From positions 45,136,001-45,200,000 of the forward strand of contig OX597823.1 in the NCBI GenBank assembly GCA_951406725.2: a stretch of DNA of 64,000 bases, written 5' to 3'. This DNA comes from Octopus vulgaris. Its lineage: Eukaryota. The notes under the pieces were generated by a model. It had not been told where the DNA came from. It ran no database searches and saw only the letters and a list, made by a program, of their open reading frames with translations. Positions 4,646-61,534 of this stretch are shown in pieces (the first letter of the stretch is position 1; each line of letters begins with the position of its first letter). The translations under genes and the position numbers were made by a program.

Positions 4646-5079
4646 AGTTTCATAGGGAGACAGCAAGCAAATGGCACCATTAGTAAAGTCATTGTTTACA
4701 ACCAGTGAATGAGAAGGGAAATATAAAATCACTTACACCACACACACAAACACACATGCACGCACACACATGTGCATGCACACACACACACACACACACA
4801 CACTGACACTTTGTCAGTTGTAATGGCATGTGTTCCAGTTGATCCAATCAATGGAATAGACTGCTCGTGAAATTAACATGCAAGTGGCTGAGTACTCCAC
4901 AGACACATGCACCTTTAATGTAGTTCTCAGAAGAGATTCAGCATGACACCAGACTACTCACTTTTGCCAGCTGAGTGAACTGGAGTGATGTGAAATAAAG
5001 AACAAAATGCACTACCAGTAAATTAAATTCATGACCTTATGATTGTGAGCTGAATAAGCTAACCACTAAGTCATATGCC

Positions 5080-8349: not shown

Positions 8350-9469
8350 GACTACTCCCTTTAATTGTTCACTTGAGCATCATTTATAAATCAACTTTTG
8401 CTAAAGGCCTTAAGATCAGAAAGACTGATTTGCATAATATAAAGCATTCTTGATAGCTAGCTTGATGAATAGATTATTGAAGCATTAGCAGTATTTTCTT
8501 TCAATGATATTCAGCATGACAGAATAGTGAAATTAATCATGCTGGTTGTCAAGAATGCATTATATTATGCAAACCAGTTCATCAGATTTCATTAATCCTG
8601 AGTAATAGCAGGCTTATAAGCAACATCTCAGGGAACAGATAAAAAGAGTAGTTACTTGTGATGAAATCCCTCTAATTTGGTTGATCTTTCTCCTAATGTC
8701 CACAAAGTTATTGTCTATTATTTATAGTGTTGACTAAAAGCTATAGATGTATATTCTGTAGCATATAATAATAGCAATGAAACAAAATGATGTTGATATA
8801 AGAGTGGTTTGTTAATTGAAGTAAAGGTAAAGTTACTTTCTCGAGTCATACTGATGTATAAGGATCGGTTTCCTGGTTTCATGGTTTACATACTCCCCAC
8901 CTGAATGTGTGAAATAAAGTGCTTTCCTCAACAACACAACACATCACCTCGTCCAGGAATTGAAACCACAATCTTACGACTATGCAACCCACACCCTAAC
9001 CACTAATCCACGTGCCTCCACTAATTGAAGTGGTTGTCAGGAATGCATTCCTCCTCCTCCTCCTCCTCATCCTCACCACCACCACCACCACCACCACCAC
9101 TACCACCACCAGCATCGTTTCAATATTCACTTTTCTAAGCTTGCATGGGTTAAATGGAATTTGTTGTTGTAGATTTTCTACAGCCGGATGTCTTTCCTGC
9201 TGCTAACCCACTTCAGTTTCTAAGTAAGATAATATTTATCCATGGATAGACATGTTTCCACAGAAGATTGGAAATGGATAACACTGCTTGTATGATGGTG
9301 ATATTCATTTACAACCATCACATGATATCAAGACAAGGAGAGACTAACATCCCCACCACACATACCCAGGTGTATTGATTTGATACTCAGGAAGAATGGT
9401 AAAGTCTTTGAAATTTTGAGCCTACACTCTTCAACAGAAAGGATTGAAAGGGAAAAAAATGAAGAGAGA

Positions 9470-10650
9470 AGAAATGTCTAGGGATTAGCAGTTCAACTAT
9501 CCCTAGTTTCCTCATTGACCACCAGATAAGGGATTGGGGGACCCTATCAAAGGCTTTCTCCGTGTCAACGAAAGCCAGGTACAGAGGTTTATCTTTGGCT
9601 AGATATTTCTCCTGCAGCTGTCTTACCAGAAATATTGCATCAGTGGTGCTTTTCCCTGGCATGAACCCAAATTGCATCTTATCTAAACTGCCTCTCTCCC
9701 TAATTAGTTGGGCTATGACCCTCTCCATGACCTTCATTACCTGATCCAACAACTTGATACCTCTGTAATTATTTATATCTAAAGTGTCACCTTTACCTTT
9801 GTAGCAGTTGACTATGGTGCTGCTACACTAGTCATTGGGTATGGCTCCCTCATGTATCACCTGGTTAACTATACAGGTGACTAGGCTATAGCCGACACCA
9901 CCAGATATTTTGAGCATCTCTGCGGTGATTCCTGATGGGCCGGGGGCTTGCTCTGTCTTCATACTCTTAATTGCTTTATCTACCAAGGTACTGTTAATTT
10001 GGATAGCTGGTCCCTCTGTTGGGTTGACATTCGGCAGACTCCCTTTCTCCCATTCATTCTCTTTATTGAGCAACCTTTCATAGTGGCATCTCCAAACCTC
10101 TCTCTTTGCAGCCTCGTTTAGTGCAACTGAACCATCATCCATGCAGACATATTTCTCTGCTATGACATCACAATTCTCTCTCACACACTGTCTTGCAACA
10201 CGAAATACTTCAAGTCTTTGCTCATCACGGCACAGAACATTGGCAAATCTTTTCTTATCTGCTTCCCCTTTGGCTAAATAAAACTGTCTCCTAGCTTCTC
10301 TTTTGGCAGTCTGATACGATTCCCTGCTACCACCATTCTTCCAGTACTTCCAAGCCTGTCTCTTTTCTCTAATATCCCTGTCAACCACATTGTTTCACCA
10401 CCACATTCTCTTGGGTCGAGAGGGGACTTTGCACCATCCACAGATCTGGTTAGTAGTACTCAGCAGGTTGTCCCATAGAAACCTCCAGTTTTCTTCCACA
10501 TCATGTAATGCTATATCCCTTTCTATTTCATCAAAGGCTTCGAGTAATACGTCTCTAAATCTTCCTCCATTCACAAGATCTTTAAGCTTCCAGACCCATC
10601 TCCTCGATGCTGGTCAGTTTCTGGGCATTCATTTAGCCCTGATCCTGAAG
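9470..10650 (-). mobile_element. RTE-clade LINE internal fragment (linker plus N-terminal RT), pseudogenised
   Basis: ORFs 9828..10388 and 9387..9752 carry APGPSGITAEMLK and QFGFMPGKSTTDAIFLVRQLQEKY..LYLAFVDTEKAFDRVP, typical RTE RT motifs; in-frame stops; truncated at both ends. Confidence 0.93.
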
Positions 10651-12998: not shown

Positions 12999-13245
12999 AT
13001 AAAAACGGTAAGACAACAAAAGAAAGAAAGAGATCTCGATAGTACGTAAATAGAGGAATTTATCTGTAAATGTAATATGTGACAATTATTCGGTAGCCAC
13101 GATAAAACTCCACCTCGGCATCCAAAACTTGGAGTTTTATCATGGCTACTGAATAATTGTCACATATTACATTTACATGTAGCTATAGATATAGATATAT
13201 ATATATATTTATATATACACATACATATATATACAAACACTGAAG

Positions 13246-13640
13246 ATGTACAGAAAACATTCCATCACATGCCAGGGGAAAAAACTAGAAGTAGTTGATA
13301 GCTTCTTCTACCTTTGTGACCAAGTCTGTGGTGGGGTAGGTTACTCTGAGAGTTACTCTAGAATAGTAATAGCCTGGGCAAAGTTCAGGGAGCCCCTACC
13401 TCAGGTGGAAACTAAGGGCCTCTCGCTCAAGATGAAAGGTAGACTGTATGATGCATGTGTGCAAACAGCCAAGCTACACAGCAGTGAAACATGGGTCATA
13501 ACTGCTGAGGACATGCAGTGGCTTGAAAGAGATGAAGCTAGTATGATCCGCTGGATGTGTAATGTCAGAGTGCAAACATGACAGAGCGTGAGTGCCCTGA
13601 GAGAAAAGTTGGAGATAAGAAGCATCAAATGTGGTGTGCA
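13246..13640 (+). mobile_element. RTE-clade LINE fragment (C-terminal RT/thumb)
   Basis: LEVVDSFFYL..RIVIAWAKFRE..KGRLYDACVQTAKLHSSETW..MIRWMC; ends abruptly at the satellite. Confidence 0.9.
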
Positions 13641-14948
13641 AAATTTTCAAAAAATTTTTGGGTAAAATTTTCGGTGAAAATTTTTGGTGAAAATTTTCGA
13701 AAAAGTTTTGGGTAAAATTTTCGGTGAAAATTTTCGAAAAATTTTTGGGGAAAATTTTTAGGAAAATTTTCGGTGAAAATTTTCGAAAAATTTTTTTGGG
13801 TAAAATTTTCGGTGAAAATTTTCGGAAAATTTTTTTTCGGGTAAAATTTTCGAAAATTTTGGGTAAAATTTTCGAAAAAGTTTTGGGTAAAATTTTCGAA
13901 AAATTTTTGGGGAAAATTTTCGGTGAAAATTTTCGAAAAATTCTTGGGGAAAATTTTTCGAAAAACTTTTGGTGAAAATTTTCGAAAAACTTTGGGTAAA
14001 ATATTCGGCGAAAATTTTCGAAACACTTTTGGTGAAAATTTTCGAAAAACTTTTGGTGAAAATTTTCGAAAAATTTTTGGGTAAAATTTTCAGTGAAAAT
14101 TTTCGAAAAATTTTTGTGGAAAATTTTCTGTGAAAATTTTCGAAAAACTTTTGGTGAAAATTTTCGAAAAATTTTTGGGAAAATTTTCGAAAAATTTTTG
14201 GGAAAAATTTTTGGGTAAAATTTTCGGTGAAAATTTTCGAAAAATTTTTGGTGAAAATTTTCGAAAAATTTTTGGGTAAAATTTTCGGTGAAAATTTTCG
14301 AAAAATTCTTGAGGAAAATTTTCGGTGAAAATTTTCGAAAAATTCTTGGGGAAAATTTTCGAAAAACTTTTGGTGAAAATTTTCGAAAAACTTTTGGGTA
14401 AAATATTCGGCGAAAATTTTCGAAACACTTTTGGTGAAAATTTTCGAAAAATTTTTGGTGAAAATTTTCGAAAAATTTTTGGGTAAATTTTCGGAAAATT
14501 CTTCGCTAAAATTTTCAGTGAAAATTTTCGAAAAATTTTGGGTAAAATTTTCGAAAAATTTTTGGGTAAAATTTTCTGTTAAAATTTTCGAAAAATTCTT
14601 GGGGAAAATTTTCGAAAAACTTTTGGTGAAAATTTTCGAAAAATATTTGGGGAAAATTTTCGGTGAAAATTTTCGAAAAACTTTTGGTGAAAATTTTCGA
14701 AAAATTTTTGGGTAAAATTTTCGAAAAATTTTGGGGAAAAATTTTTGGTGAAAATTTTCGAAAAATTTTCGGGTAAAATTTTCGGTGAAAATTTTCGAAA
14801 AAGTTTTGGGAAAATTTTCGGTGAAAATTTTCGAAAAATTCTTGGGGAAAATTTTCGAAAAACTTTTGGTGAAAATTTTCGAAAAACTTTTGGGTAAAAT
14901 ATTTGGCGAAAACTTTCGAAATACTTGTGGTGAAAATTTTCGAAAAAC
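13640..14948. repeat. Phased A4-5/T4-6 satellite (GAAAATTTTC-like units, about 10-14 bp) with higher-order blocks
   Basis: AAAATTTT tracts separated by CG, GGTG, GGGT or GGGG. Marker TTCTTGGGG at 13941, 14343, 14596 and 14839; marker ATATT(C/T)GGCG at 14001, 14403 and 14899. Confidence 0.95.
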
Positions 14949-15969
14949 CATTGATTGGATCAACTGGAACACTCATTGATTGGATCAACTCATTGATTGG
15001 ATCAACTCATTGATTGGATCAACTGGAACACTCATCATCATAACCAATGGAGTGCCAGTTCTGCTCTCTGAGTTCAAATCCAGCTAAGTTCCACTGAACC
15101 AGGCATCTCTTCAGGTTTAATAAATAGCATACCATTTTAGCTCTGGGGTGAATTCCACCTTCTCTCTCCTTCACTCTGCAATGTAACTGTAATTCAAAGA
15201 ACCAACCTTGTCACAAGGTGTCATCTTGACAGAATCAGTGGAATTTCAGAAACACATGCTTTTCTGTATTTCTTTATATTCAGAGTTCAAATCCTAAGTC
15301 CACTTAGCTTTTAAAGTACTAGTTAAGTACAATTTAATTTATAAACGCCCTCTGCAAAATTTCAGGCCTTCTGAGTGGTCAGCTGGCAGAATCATTAGCA
15401 TACTGGGTGAAATGCTTAACAGCATTTGTCCATCTTCATGTTCTAAGTTCAAATTTCACTGAGGCGGACTTGACCTTTCATCCTTTTGGGGTTGATGAAA
15501 TAAGTATCAGTTAAGCACTGGGATCAATGTAATTGACTATCCCCCACCCTGCAAAATTTCAGGCCTTTTGCCTATAGTAGAAAGAATTATTATTATTATT
15601 TTATTATAATCATCATTATTTCTGTTTATTTATTCTAGTAAATATATACCGTATTGATCTCACTAGTTCTCAAAAGGTTTTTGAAGGTCAAGGGTCATGA
15701 ATTTTTTCCTTCCTTCTTACAAGACCAACTATTAACAATTGTTTCTAATTTAGACAGAAGGCCAGCAAATTTAAAGGAAAATAGGTTAGACAGTTACATA
15801 AACCCCATTTGATGACTGGAACTTTATTTTATCAACCCTGGATGTATGAAAGGCAAAATTAACCTTAACAGGAGCTGGCCAATATCCTACACTGTTGCAT
15901 CTAATGTTTATTGGTAGCACCAAAACTTTAAACAATAAGGCATGGAGGAAAGATTTTTTATGTAATTAA

Positions 15970-28998: not shown

Positions 28999-30255
28999 CA
29001 GGAGTTGGACAAAATAATGGAAACACCTAGTATCATAGCATCATAGCATCATAATTTTGAAATATCTATAAAACCATCAAAAGCTTGTTTGTTTTTATGT
29101 TTTTTGATTTATTATTAGTGCTGCTTAATATATTTTGCTAAAATTGCTGTTTCTTTTCAGATATCATCAGAAAAAGGTAATTAAAATTCATTAAAATGAC
29201 AGATCTATCAGACTTTCAAAGAGGTTAAATTGTTGGGTACTTTGTATGGCAGGCGTTTGTATAATGAAAACAGCCAAAGAGTTTGGTGTATCAAGAATTA
29301 CTGTCTTGAAAGTAATGACAGCCTTTGAGAAAGAGGGAAAAACCTCCCTGTCAAAACAAAACTCAGGAAGAAAACCAAAACTTTCAGATAGGGACTGTCA
29401 GACTTTTATGCGAATTGTTAGAAAGGATCACAAAAGTACAGCTCCCAAAATTATTTCAGAGCATAATGATCACCTTGAGAACCCAGTTTCCACAAAAACT
29501 GCTTGCTCGGAGCTGCACAAAGCCAGATTTCAGAGGAGGGCTGCAATCAGAAAACCACTACTTTCAAGAACAAACATTGCAAAGTGTTTAGAGTGGAGTA
29601 AAAACCTACAGAATTGGTCTCTAGAGCAGTGGAAGAATGTTATTTTCTCAGACAAGTCATCCTTTACCTTATTTCCAACTACCAGCTGAGTATTCATGTG
29701 GATACAGCCAAATGAAGCATTTTATCCAGACTACCTTAAACATGGGGGAGGAGCTATGATGATCTAGGAGTGGGGCTATATCTTGGAAATCCGCAGGTCC
29801 AATGGTTTCCCTTCATGGCAGAATTAATAGTCAAGACTATTTAAGCATTGTATCTGATCAAATACATCCTATGGTTGTGAAACTGTTTCCAGAGGGAAAC
29901 ATAATCTTTCAGGATGATAATGCACCAATTCACACAGCTAAAATTGTTACTGAATGGCACAAGGAACATTCTGGTGAAGTTGAACATCCTATCTGGTCAC
30001 CACAGTCCCCAGATCTCAATATTATCGATTATTTATACTGCATTTTAGAAAAACAAACAAGGAGTTGATATCCTCCACCATCATCACTTCAAGAACTGGA
30101 GACTGTTTTAGCTGAGGAATGGACAATTCAAACTTTGTACGAGTCCATACTTCGTAGAAGTCAAGGTGTATTTACTGGTAAAGGCGGTCCCACCCCATAT
30201 TAAAATTAATTTGTTCGAAATTTTAAGGTGTTTTCATTATTTTGTCCAACCCCTG
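28999..30255 (+). mobile_element. Full-length decayed Tc1/mariner transposon with DD36E-type spacing, copy 1
   Basis: TA TSD; about 30-bp TIRs CAGGAGTTGGACAAAATAATGGAAACACCT / AGGTGTTTTCATTATTTTGTCCAACCCCTG; disrupted transposase 29196-30203 with IFSDKSSF, FQDDNAPIH and SPDLNII. Confidence 0.96.
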
Positions 30256-54265: not shown

Positions 54266-55505
54266 TTGGACAAAATAATAGAAACAGCTAGCATCACAGC
54301 ATCATAATTTTGAAATATCTATAAAACCATCAAAGGCTTGTTTATTTTTTAGGTGTTTTGATTTATTATTAGTGTTGCTTAATATGTTTTGCTAAAATTG
54401 CTGTTTATTTTCAGATATCATTGGAAAAAGGTAATTAAAATTCATTAAAATGACAGATCTATCAGACTTTCAAAGATGTCAAATTGTTGGTGCCCATATG
54501 GGAAGCACTAGCGTAATGAAAACAGTCGACATCTTTGGTGTATCAAGAAGTACTATCTTGAAAGAAATGACAGCCTTTGAGAAAGAAGGAAAAACCTCCT
54601 TATTGAAACAAAACTCCAGAAAAAAACCAAAACTTTCGGATAGGGACCGTCGGACTCTTACGCAAATTGTTAGAAAGGATCACAAAAGTACAGCTCCCAA
54701 AATTACTTCAGGGCTTAATGACCACTTTGAGAATCTAGTTTCCACAAAAACTGCTTGCCAGGAGCTGCACAAAGCTGGATTTCAGAGGAGGGCTGCAATC
54801 AGAAAACCTCTATGTTCAAAAACAAACTTTGGTCCCTAGCACAGTGGAAGAATGTTATTTTCTTGGACAAGTCATCCTTTCCTTATTTCTGACCACTGGC
54901 CAAGTATACATGTGGAGACAGGCAAAAGAAGCATTTGACCCAGACTGTCTTCTTCCAACTGTTAAACATCGAGGAGGATCTGTGATGATCTGGGGTGGGG
55001 GTGGGTTCTATATCTTGGAAATTCACTGACCCAATGGTTTCCTTTCATGGCAGAATTAATAGTCAAGACTATTTAAGCATTTTATCTGATCAAATTCATC
55101 CTATAGTTGTGGAACTGTTTCCAGAGGGTAACACAGTCTTTCAGGATGATAATGCACCAATTCACACAGCTAACTTTATTACTGAATGGCCCAAAGAACA
55201 TTCTAGTGGAATTGAACATCTTATCTGGCAACCACAGTCCCCAGATCTCAATATTATCGAACATTTAGGGTGCATTTTAGAAAAACAAGTAAGGAGTCAA
55301 TATTCTCCACCATCACCACTACAAGAACTAGAGACTGTTTTAGCTGAAGAATGGACAAAAATTCCTTTGGAAACAATTCAAACTTTGTATGAGTTCATAC
55401 CTCATAGAATTCAAGCTATAATTACTGCCAAAGTCAGTCCTACCCCATATTAAAATTAATTTGTTTGAAATGTTAAGGTGTTTCCATTATTCTCTCCAAC
55501 CCCTG
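54260..55505 (+). mobile_element. Full-length decayed Tc1/mariner DD36E transposon, copy 2
   Basis: Colinear with 28999-30255; ORF pieces 54450..54839 (MTDLSDFQRCQIVGAH, HTH region) and 54995..55453 (FQDDNAPIH..SPDLNIIEHL); TIRs partly eroded. Confidence 0.95.
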
Positions 55506-59908: not shown

Positions 59909-61534
59909 GTTAGTATGTACATAGAAGTGACATTTCTGATACACATAGCAATAAAGACAATTGTACACATTCAGTTTTTTGTGATATTTTTATGTCTATT
60001 ACCAAAGGACCTGTTAGCAGTGTCATTGTTGCTTTCTAAGGTCTTTCTCACATCTCCAAATTTACATTTGAAATTCAGTTGATGTGTGCTTTACCAGCTT
60101 AATGGATTATTCCATATCGTCTATGATTGGATTGGCTGGACAATGTAAAATGGTCTGTATACTGTGAGGATAACTGGCACTATTTTGGTTATGATGACAA
60201 GGGTTCCAGTTGATCTGATCAATGGAACAGCCTGCTTGTGAAATTAATGTGCAAGTGGCTGAACACACCACAAACACATGTGCCCTTAACGTAGTTCTCA
60301 GAGATAGTCAGCATGACACAGAATGTGACGAGGCTGGCCCTTTGAAAGACAAGAACTACTCATTTTTGCCATCTGGATGAGCTTGAACAACATGAAATAA
60401 AGTATCTTGCTTAAGGACTCAATGCACTGCTGGATATGGAACTCATGACCAAATGCCCTAACCACTAAGCCATGCACCTTCATATTATGAAATAAATATA
60501 CCCAGTTTCTAGTTGGATAAATGACTGAAACTAGGCAACAGCTAAGTGAAACTAGTGATAAATTTTGGTGATATTCTGTCTGGTATTGCTTCTTCTTTCT
60601 GGGCATGTCCCCCTTTTTTTTTTTTACTTTTTCTTCCATTCTTTATCTTGTAATGTTGTTGTTTAGCCCCAGATCAGCTCTGATTGAGTAGAATTATAAT
60701 CAAAGGTGTTCAAGCCATGACTATCCTGTCTTTATGGTTAGGCATAAGGTGATGAAGTGGTTAAGTTGGATAGGATGCTTTGCAGTATTTATTCCAGGTC
60801 TCTACACTTTGAGTTCAAATCCCATTGTAGTCAACTTTGCCTTTCAACCCTCCAGGATCAATAAAAAAAGTTACTAATTCAGGGAAGTAGATAAGCAGAA
60901 CTATTAGACAGTTGGGTGAGACTTGTTTTAGCATCTGCTTCAGCACTTTGTATTTTGACAGAAATGCCCTCTATGACAGTAATGTCAACCTGTATCAGCC
61001 ATAGACAACAGCCTTTCCCTTGAATAACATCAGTATCCTAGGGAGAGGAGACTTGCAGACATAGGTAATTTCTAGTCTTCCCCCAAATATCTTACTCAAC
61101 CCTAGACATCCATGTAAGAGTACATGGTCAACATTTTGCTGTACTATATATTCAGACACAATGTATCTTGGATTACATTATCCTATATGGAATGCAATTT
61201 GAGGGAAATTTATTTGGTTGCTATTTCTAGCATGTCGAGTGACCACATAAAGGATCCATTGCTGGTTAACAGATACAATAGTTGTAGCTGCTATAATATA
61301 ATATAATAATTGCTATTGCAAATGAAAGATACTTGACAGTGCAATATGCTAGTCTAGATTCATTTGTATATATGGTAACGAAGATGGTGATGACAATGAA
61401 AATATAAGGCATAGTAGTAGTAGTAGTGACACCAAGGTAAAGACCCCACTTCGGTCATAAATGACCATGGGATTGCACCTAAAAAGTTCCCCTCCAAAGT
61501 ACATGTCCAGGTGAGATTGTTTATGGAAATTTTC

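What the first reader, a model, noticed from the sequence alone, without database searches (positions are those of the whole stretch)
13640..14948. 1.3 kb phased A4T4 satellite: a natural version of the classic curved-DNA polymer
Seen: self-complementary AAAATTTT tracts recur roughly once per helical turn. T tracts are almost never followed directly by A, spacers are CG or G-rich on one strand only, TTCGAA CpGs are abundant in an otherwise CpG-poor window, and a block of about 110 bp recurs near 13940, 14340 and 14840. Known: (GAAAATTTTC)n is strongly intrinsically curved whereas (GTTTTAAAAC)n is not, and periodic An/Tn clusters affect chromatin in nematodes. Inference: a young structural satellite (bent DNA, nucleosome phasing or exclusion, cruciform-prone), unlike every other repeat here and possibly undescribed in cephalopods. 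An assembly artefact or foreign DNA is a real alternative.
Basis: partly seen in the sequence, partly recalled or inferred. Interest (0 to 1): 0.72.

Follow-up and report, generated by a model that had tools for sequence, protein, structure and literature searches.

The report
Dispersed octopus A-tract minisatellite, not curved
This 1.3-kb repeat is real, but its A/T runs recur every 12.2 bases instead of once per helix turn, so it is predicted to be nearly straight; it is one likely young copy of a repeat family scattered over the genome that was likely pasted in during DNA-break repair.

Summary
The array is real: 108 A-runs, 79 AAAATTTT, 40 TTCGAA and four copies of a ~135-bp block. Its period is 12.14 bp with almost no power at 10.5 bp. 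A simple bend model predicts nearly straight DNA (150-bp end-to-end ratio 0.94, against 0.37 for a phased polymer). It is therefore not a natural (GA4T4C)n or PATC.

It is not unique, foreign or an artefact. A 27-mer has 333 exact hits in this 2.8-Gb genome, at roughly 160 or more loci. Arrays run 0.2-14 kb and mix with a 32-bp repeat, a 200-bp module and a TCF-site satellite. They share no ends and no consistent target duplication.

This copy sits between a cut LINE and a SINE tail, with 2-4-nt microhomologies and a small junction duplication. It keeps 97% of the CpGs in its TTCG core, while the adjoining SINE kept 0 of 6. Best reading: a young, repair-mediated insertion of a dispersed euchromatic minisatellite.

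STAT, CHR/LIN54 and DEAF1 motifs are present but showed no specific conservation. Earlier scan notes found the linked TF-site satellites on other DNA of this genome.

The parts
13241..13641 (+). Fragment of a high-copy LINE (RTE-like, label recalled), cut at the array junction; its last AA (13640-13641) is shared with the array start
   Evidence: 4159 candidates in the genome; 13 of 14 fetched copies continue into further LINE sequence that is absent here, and none matches the right flank
13640..14948 (+). A4T4 minisatellite array ('S' module): about 108 units of 10, 13 or 14 bp (AAAATTTTCG / AAAATTTTCGGTG / AAAAATTTTTGG(G/T)(G/T)), period 12.14 bp, G-rich on +
13917..14055 (+). Higher-order ~135-bp block, copy 1 (approximate bounds)
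   Evidence: 13889-14085 matches 14291-14487 at 179/197
14313..14451 (+). Higher-order block, copy 2
   Evidence: 135/139 identical to 14809-14947
14568..14704 (+). Higher-order block, copy 3
   Evidence: 126/137 identical to 14811-14947; a 37-mer of the block has 3 hits in the genome, all in this window
14809..14947 (+). Higher-order block, copy 4
14948..14951 (+). CCAT: 4-nt microhomology shared by the family's commonest S-to-N switch point and the SINE
   Evidence: 28 of 73 N-module starts, in 13 loci, are preceded by the same 12 bases that end this array; other SINE copies carry TTCCAT at this point
14949..15007 (+). Junction tandem duplications (17-25 bp units) of the SINE sequence next to the array
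   Evidence: TRF 14971-15024, period 17, 100%; bin 14990-15005 covered in runs X1 and X2
15008..15060 (+). Last ~50 bp of a SINE (label recalled) whose front part is missing; CpGs decayed
   Evidence: window paralogs near 4830-4950 and 60170-60360; 0 of 6 CpG kept against a younger copy

Best explanation
The array is one likely young copy of a dispersed, mosaic A4T4 minisatellite family, likely copied from another locus into a DNA break by microhomology-guided template switching, and it is predicted to be nearly straight rather than curved. Shown: the family, the 12.2-bp period, the cut LINE and SINE flanks, the 2-4-nt junction overlaps and the internal block duplications. Inferred: (1) the donor was an array in which S runs into the N module, because this copy ends at the commonest S-to-N switch; (2) host DNA between LINE and SINE was lost in the same event; (3) slippage or unequal exchange then made the four ~135-bp blocks; (4) hairpin-prone, self-similar units favour the re-priming that shuffles modules and inverts ends; (5) it has no selected function here, though it is likely nucleosome-poor and adds a CpG-rich patch to CpG-poor DNA. 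Whether the donor was chromosomal or circular DNA is untested.
For: Family: 333 and 259 exact hits with reversed controls 0; a 41-mer on 11 chromosomes; 108 arrays in held loci, 59 of them mixed with other modules. No element ends: 16 shared pairs among 205 outward flanks, from neighbouring duplicates or high-copy host repeats apart from one weak 33-bp match; no consistent TSD in 64 segments. Of 24 arrays with both flanks recognised, 7 had any collinear match and 1 was a clean gap-0 insertion. 26 of 98 arrays switch orientation. One passenger element sits beside S and N modules on C1, C3 and C7 at 95-96% identity, while 17 of 20 fetched copies have no family module. Youth: 97% CG kept in the TTCG core beside a SINE tail with 0 of 6. 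Drift: tract A/T vary 1-5% and spacers 7-16% outside unit-type switches, like the N-module baseline of A/T 3.8%, G/C 8.5%, CpG 7.9%. Precedent: microhomology junctions with a flank duplication for Rsp-like (PMC7403614, passages) and irregular ends for Cast satellites (PMC11610590, passages).
Against: Microhomologies of 2-4 nt can arise by chance and I ran no null for them. The left overlap is surely only AA; GCAA needs a donor variant seen in 3 of 18 cases and with one more A. No pre-insertion allele was seen, so the deletion and the timing are inferred, and LINE and SINE loss could be separate events. No listed contig bridged either junction. CpG retention could reflect protection from methylation rather than youth; array decay did not track flank CpG o/e (rho -0.13, p 0.36, n=49). 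S is directly joined to a TCF-site satellite at 4 loci and N carries a MEF2-type word (motif recalled), which hints at protein binding rather than plain drift.
Confidence: 0.62

Rival explanations
1. S is one module of a satellite family shaped by transcription-factor binding: its words (TTC-N3-GAA for STAT, TTCGAA for LIN54/MuvB, paired TTCG for DEAF1) would bind a protein that protects or spreads the arrays. This can coexist with repair-mediated insertion.
For: 16 TTC-N3-GAA in the array, all its variants in the N3. 40 TTCGAA, a CHR variant that binds DREAM (PMC4176359, passages). 14 TTCG pairs 11 nt apart, within DEAF1's 6-11 nt (PMC4274154, passages). 5 SAND-domain matches in the genome. 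Direct junctions to a CTTTGATC satellite at 4 loci. All motif vs N3 transversions 2.6% vs 8.1%, lower in 51 and higher in 5 of 58 loci.
Against: That last contrast is confounded by base composition and unit-type switches. Four like-for-like tests in the 13-bp unit gave p 0.054-0.6. TTCGAA was not protected: inside positions varied as much as or more than outside ones, and C-to-G (85) was as common as the CHR-keeping C-to-T (74). Three different factors fit, so the match is not specific.
Confidence: 0.17
2. The arrays are internal repeats or debris of a rolling-circle transposon (Helitron/Helentron) or of a retro-mobilised RNA.
For: Head-to-tail S+N units of 250-400 bp, no TSD, inverted ends in 26 of 98 arrays. 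Molluscan precedent in Cg_HINE (PMC7492417, passages).
Against: No conserved flanks, subTIRs or 3' hairpin among 205 outward flanks. The long ORFs in 20 large-array loci were repeat readings or host LINE pieces. No Rfam family reached its gathering score in 4 loci.
Confidence: 0.13
3. A structural, intrinsically curved satellite selected for bending or nucleosome phasing, or a precursor evolving towards one.
For: Polarity is A4T4, the bent form (PMC2879501, passages). The 10-11-bp spectral share rises with divergence (rho -0.46 with k-mer purity, p 0.017, n=26). Helitron minisatellites mature into PATCs in C. elegans (bioRxiv 10.64898/2026.08.08.743475; abstract, passages and section 13 read).
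Against: Period 12.14 bp here and 11.55-12.48 bp in 31 of 31 long arrays. Model end-to-end ratio 0.90-0.98 over all six parameter sets. Peak period does not move with divergence (rho 0.05, p 0.81), and simulated neutral decay gives a similar rise in the 10-11-bp share.
Confidence: 0.06
4. Assembly artefact or foreign DNA.
For: No listed contig bridges either junction.
Against: Family on chromosome-scale contigs with host repeats as flanks. Array-type sequence at high depth in 4 of 4 runs from three organism labels. The junction duplication is covered in X1 and X2, each of which differs from the window at one flank site. 0 hits in viral, metagenome and prokaryote collections.
Confidence: 0.02

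Closest known systems
Dispersed euchromatic satellites: Drosophila Rsp-like/1.688 (PMC7403614, passages) and Tribolium Cast1-9 (PMC11610590, passages)
   Same: Short arrays at many loci, no fixed ends, microhomology at junctions, small flank duplications, hybrid repeats that move together.
   Different: Units of 10-14 bp in an irregular grammar rather than long monomers; at least four unrelated modules in mosaic; frequent inversions; eccDNA untested here.
(GA4T4C)n curved polymers and C. elegans PATCs (PMC2879501, PMC4947018, passages; bioRxiv 10.64898/2026.08.08.743475, parts read)
   Same: A4T4 tracts without TpA steps, separated by G/C spacers, over more than 1 kb.
   Different: Period 12.2 bp, not about 10-10.5; bends are predicted to cancel over about 77 bp; no drift to 10 bp in the sampled copies.
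Cg_HINE Helentron-borne satellite arrays of Crassostrea gigas (PMC7492417, passages)
   Same: Molluscan, dispersed short arrays, no TSD, sometimes two unrelated arrays in a row.
   Different: No conserved left or right flank, subTIR or palindrome; orientation not fixed; host DNA is often cut on both sides.
TF-site composite satellites of this genome (unreviewed scan notes e1-8662736, e1-10340363 and others)
   Same: The TCF-site satellite abuts S at 4 held loci; mosaic, dispersed build.
   Different: For S, no single factor or motif-specific conservation could be shown.

Membership tests
Curved A-tract DNA / PATC | A-tracts of 4 bp or more without TpA, in A4T4 polarity | tested here: met
   79 AAAATTTT; T run followed by A in 1 of 98
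Curved A-tract DNA / PATC | Tracts in phase with the helix (about 10-10.5 bp) | tested here: not met
   Period 12.14 bp; coherence 0.13, below shuffled 0.21; below shuffle in 30 of 31 family arrays
Curved A-tract DNA / PATC | Retarded gel mobility or measured curvature | not testable with these tools
   Only a one-parameter bend model
Dispersed euchromatic satellite/minisatellite | Tandem non-coding units in short arrays at many unlinked loci | tested here: met
Dispersed euchromatic satellite/minisatellite | No element-specific termini; irregular junctions, often with microhomology | tested here: met
   microhomology seen but not tested against a null
Dispersed euchromatic satellite/minisatellite | Presence on eccDNA | not testable with these tools
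   no such data
Helentron HINE element | Conserved flanks with subTIR, IR and 3' palindrome | tested here: not met
   No cross-chromosome conserved flank among 205 outward flanks
Helentron HINE element | No TSD; insertion at TT | tested here: inconclusive
   No consistent TSD; no conserved terminal bases
Foldback / TIR transposon | Fixed inverted termini and TSD | tested here: not met
   72 of 98 arrays have one orientation; ends vary
Retrozyme | Hammerhead or other self-cleaving ribozyme in the unit | tested here: not met
   No ribozyme family among the 39 Rfam matches in 4 loci, none at gathering score
TF-binding satellite (STAT / LIN54 / DEAF1) | Motif positions more conserved than matched non-motif positions | tested here: inconclusive
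   Matched tests p 0.054-0.6 for TTC-N3-GAA; no protection of TTCGAA
TF-binding satellite (STAT / LIN54 / DEAF1) | Protein occupancy | not testable with these tools
   needs ChIP or EMSA

The most novel reading that the evidence does not exclude
Octopus genomes carry a still-spreading, element-less 'enhancer kit': a pool of short modules (TCF+Helper, TEAD, MEF2 and this A4T4/TTCG module for STAT, DEAF1 or LIN54) that break repair stitches together and pastes at new sites. The off-phase A-tracts give stiff, straight, nucleosome-free DNA that keeps the CpG sites unmethylated and open even inside methylated regions.
Probability: 0.13. Interest if true: 0.75.

Novelty: new member of a known kind. 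Interest (0 to 1): 0.3.

Why it matters
As a curved-DNA element it does not matter: the phasing is wrong. As an undescribed dispersed satellite it is a clean case of how repeats without transposon ends spread, because donor module, junction overlaps, host deletion and later block duplications can all be read here. A recent CpG-rich, A-tract-rich insert in the most CpG-poor neighbourhood of 49 loci is a natural test of whether new CpG patches get methylated in a cephalopod. There, methylation is reported on gene bodies and somewhat on satellites (PMC9476566, passages). If a factor proved to bind the module, it would extend the TF-site satellite family of this genome into a mobile source of regulatory sites.

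Tried and rejected
- Helical phasing and curvature: rejected.
- Drift of older copies towards 10.5 bp: not seen beyond neutral blur. The copies were picked by exact patterns, so old copies are under-sampled, and 9 near-duplicate arrays were dropped before that count.
- Parent element: none found by flank comparison, ORF listing in 20 loci, Pfam or Rfam.
- The ~380-bp two-armed element next to N is an independent high-copy repeat (1967 candidates), not the carrier.
- CHR and STAT conservation: not shown. 7 neighbouring or duplicated locus sets were dropped, and 3.
- Nearest donor: no single locus stands out; the best shares 14.5% of the window's 32-mers.
- Empty allele: not obtained. X4 has the unique right flank but no cover at 14990-15005, and X15 has no cover at 14910-14941; holes prove nothing.
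- No RNA holder listed.
- Host gene: no cellular Pfam domain at E <= 0.001 in 21 and then 100 window ORFs (100 of 162 candidates in the second scan). 'Gene body' therefore rests on CpG depletion alone.
- Microsatellite targeting: 40 of 205 junctions vs 331 of 2406 background windows, weak.
- Distal bias: 20 of 24 loci in the outer third on C1-C3, but 16 of 42 on other chromosomes.
- Earlier-notes look-ups by array sequence, by the 32-bp unit and near this place gave nothing relevant. No such look-up exists for the N module.
- Literature searches listed no paper on this family. Most subscription journals and Repbase are not covered, and no supplements were read.

Full report
Observation. The array spans 13640-14948. 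Split at A runs it has 108 units; of 107 measured, 40 are 10 bp (AAAATTTTCG), 26 are 13 bp (mostly AAAATTTTCGGTG) and 33 are 14 bp (AAAAATTTTTGG..), mean 12.18. The order is not random: the 10-bp class is followed by the long G-spacer class in 42 of 42 cases, and the 13-bp class by the 10-bp class in 14 of 15. Counts of AAAATTTT (79), TTCGAA (40) and T-run-then-A (1 of 98) lie outside all 500 Markov simulations. CpG o/e is 3.70 against 0.25 in the rest of the window. A ~135-bp block occurs four times at 91-97% identity.

Phasing. A4T4 tracts bend DNA by roughly 10-20 degrees and add up only when phased with the helix (PMC2879501, passages); PATCs are defined by a 10-bp register (PMC4947018, passages). 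Here the spectral peak is 12.14 bp and power at 10.5 bp is 0.07-0.34 of the mean. In a model with one bend per tract (12-24 degrees; helix 10.3 or 10.5 bp) the mean 150-bp end-to-end ratio is 0.90-0.98. At 18 degrees and 10.5 bp it is 0.94, against 0.37 for a 10.5-bp polymer and 0.69 for 10- or 11-bp polymers. Phase coherence is 0.13, below shuffled spacings (0.21 +/- 0.02). This is a family trait: 31 pure arrays of 700 bp or more have periods of 11.55-12.48 bp, and 30 of 31 are less coherent than their shuffles. A preprint shows Helitron minisatellites maturing into 10-bp PATCs (abstract, passages and section 13). In 26 arrays the peak period did not move with divergence, and the rise in 10-11-bp share was similar to simulated neutral decay.

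Family. The window is G000:C10:45.136-45.200 Mb of a 2.8-Gb genome. Exact patterns gave 333 and 259 hits with reversed controls 0, and a 41-mer hit 11 chromosomes. Capture-recapture on C1-C3 (24, 23, 15 shared) gives about 37 loci there and about 160 genome-wide, a lower bound. A rough total is 0.9-1.7 Mb. Of 108 S-containing arrays held (206 bp-14 kb, median 1.6 kb, neighbouring duplicates included), 49 are pure and 59 are mosaics with a 32-bp repeat (R), a ~200-bp module (N) or a CTTTGATC satellite. S abuts the latter directly at 4 loci. Earlier unreviewed notes describe that TCF/TEAD satellite family elsewhere in the genome; I confirmed only the physical link.

Authenticity. The 27-mer has 0 hits in viral, metagenome and prokaryote collections. 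20 of 24 listed runs hold part of the region. Array-type sequence is deep in 4 of 4 runs laid. The unique right flank is one contig in X1, X2 and X4, each with one difference from the window, and the junction duplication bin is covered in X1 and X2. No listed piece bridges a junction.

Junctions. On the left a high-copy LINE stops at 13641; 13 of 14 other copies continue, and none matches the right flank. On the right only the last ~50 bp of a SINE remain, preceded by 17-25-bp tandem duplications. The array ends in the 12 bases that precede 28 of 73 N-module starts, and the next CCAT is shared by N and the SINE. The left overlap is AA, possibly GCAA. Across the family there are no shared ends and no consistent TSD. 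Of 24 arrays with both flanks recognised, 7 had any collinear match and one was a clean insertion; 26 of 98 switch orientation. A passenger element beside S and N recurs on three chromosomes at 95-96% identity, while 17 of 20 fetched copies of it stand alone. This points to DNA-level copying of arbitrary segments, as proposed for Rsp-like (PMC7403614, passages) and Cast satellites (PMC11610590, passages). It does not fit HINE elements, which have conserved flanks (PMC7492417, passages). The microhomology was not tested against a null.

Age. The array keeps CG in 97% of its TTTT-CG-AAAA cores, the highest of 13 loci compared. The adjoining SINE tail kept 0 of 6 CpGs, and the neighbourhood has the lowest CpG o/e (0.21) of 49 loci. 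Octopus methylation is reported mainly on gene bodies, with relatively more on satellites than on transposons (PMC9476566, passages). No host exon was identified. Youth is the simplest reading; protection from methylation is not excluded.

Function. Tract bases vary less than spacers, but by about the margin seen in the non-tandem N module. The units contain TTC-N3-GAA (16; the STAT label is recalled, one search gave a search listing only), TTCGAA (a CHR variant; PMC4176359, passages) and 14 TTCG pairs 11 nt apart (DEAF1 range; PMC4274154, passages). Matched inside/outside tests were not significant for the STAT word (p 0.054-0.6) and ran the wrong way for TTCGAA. Single strands are predicted to form many alternative hairpins (z -4.35), which would help re-priming (inference). 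Low nucleosome occupancy is inferred from the A-tract density (PMC4066768, start of abstract only).

Verdict. A real, apparently undescribed but ordinary-kind dispersed minisatellite, likely spread by repair-associated template switching. It is not a natural curved polymer. Interest 0.30. The bolder reading, a mobile kit of protein-binding modules, stays open at about 0.13. No supplements were read; satellite tables in octopus genome papers could already list the unit.

Noticed in passing
window 13065-13177: Near-perfect inverted repeat (48-nt arms, 96% complementary, 17-nt loop) between TA microsatellites, MITE-like.
   Followed up: no
window 29195-30065 and 54435-55450: Two broken Tc1/mariner-type transposase remnants (HTH_Tnp_Tc3_2 and DDE_3 matches).
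   Followed up: partly
window 9390-9827 (-): Reverse-transcriptase fragment (RVT_1, E 1.5e-11).
   Followed up: no
L122:5020-5400 (also L014, L118): ~380-bp two-armed element, often in TA repeats, 1967 candidates genome-wide; possibly one of the retrozyme-like repeats in earlier notes.
   Followed up: partly
L086:4450-4745 and other N copies: The N module carries CTA(A/T)4TAG words (MEF2-type, recalled; 29 in L119-120), and its CpGs vary no more than other G/C (7.9% vs 8.5%), suggesting little germline methylation.
   Followed up: partly
L027:3742-5331 and L144:3534-6749: Arrays sitting between inverted copies of host DNA (209 bp at 98%; 300 bp at 89%), a fold-back repair signature.
   Followed up: partly
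G000 C1-C3: Family loci cluster distally on the three largest chromosomes (20 of 24 in the outer third) and regionally on C5, C9 and C18.
   Followed up: partly
L178 (G000:C2:61.66 Mb): SAND domain inside a 2296-aa open frame.
   Followed up: no
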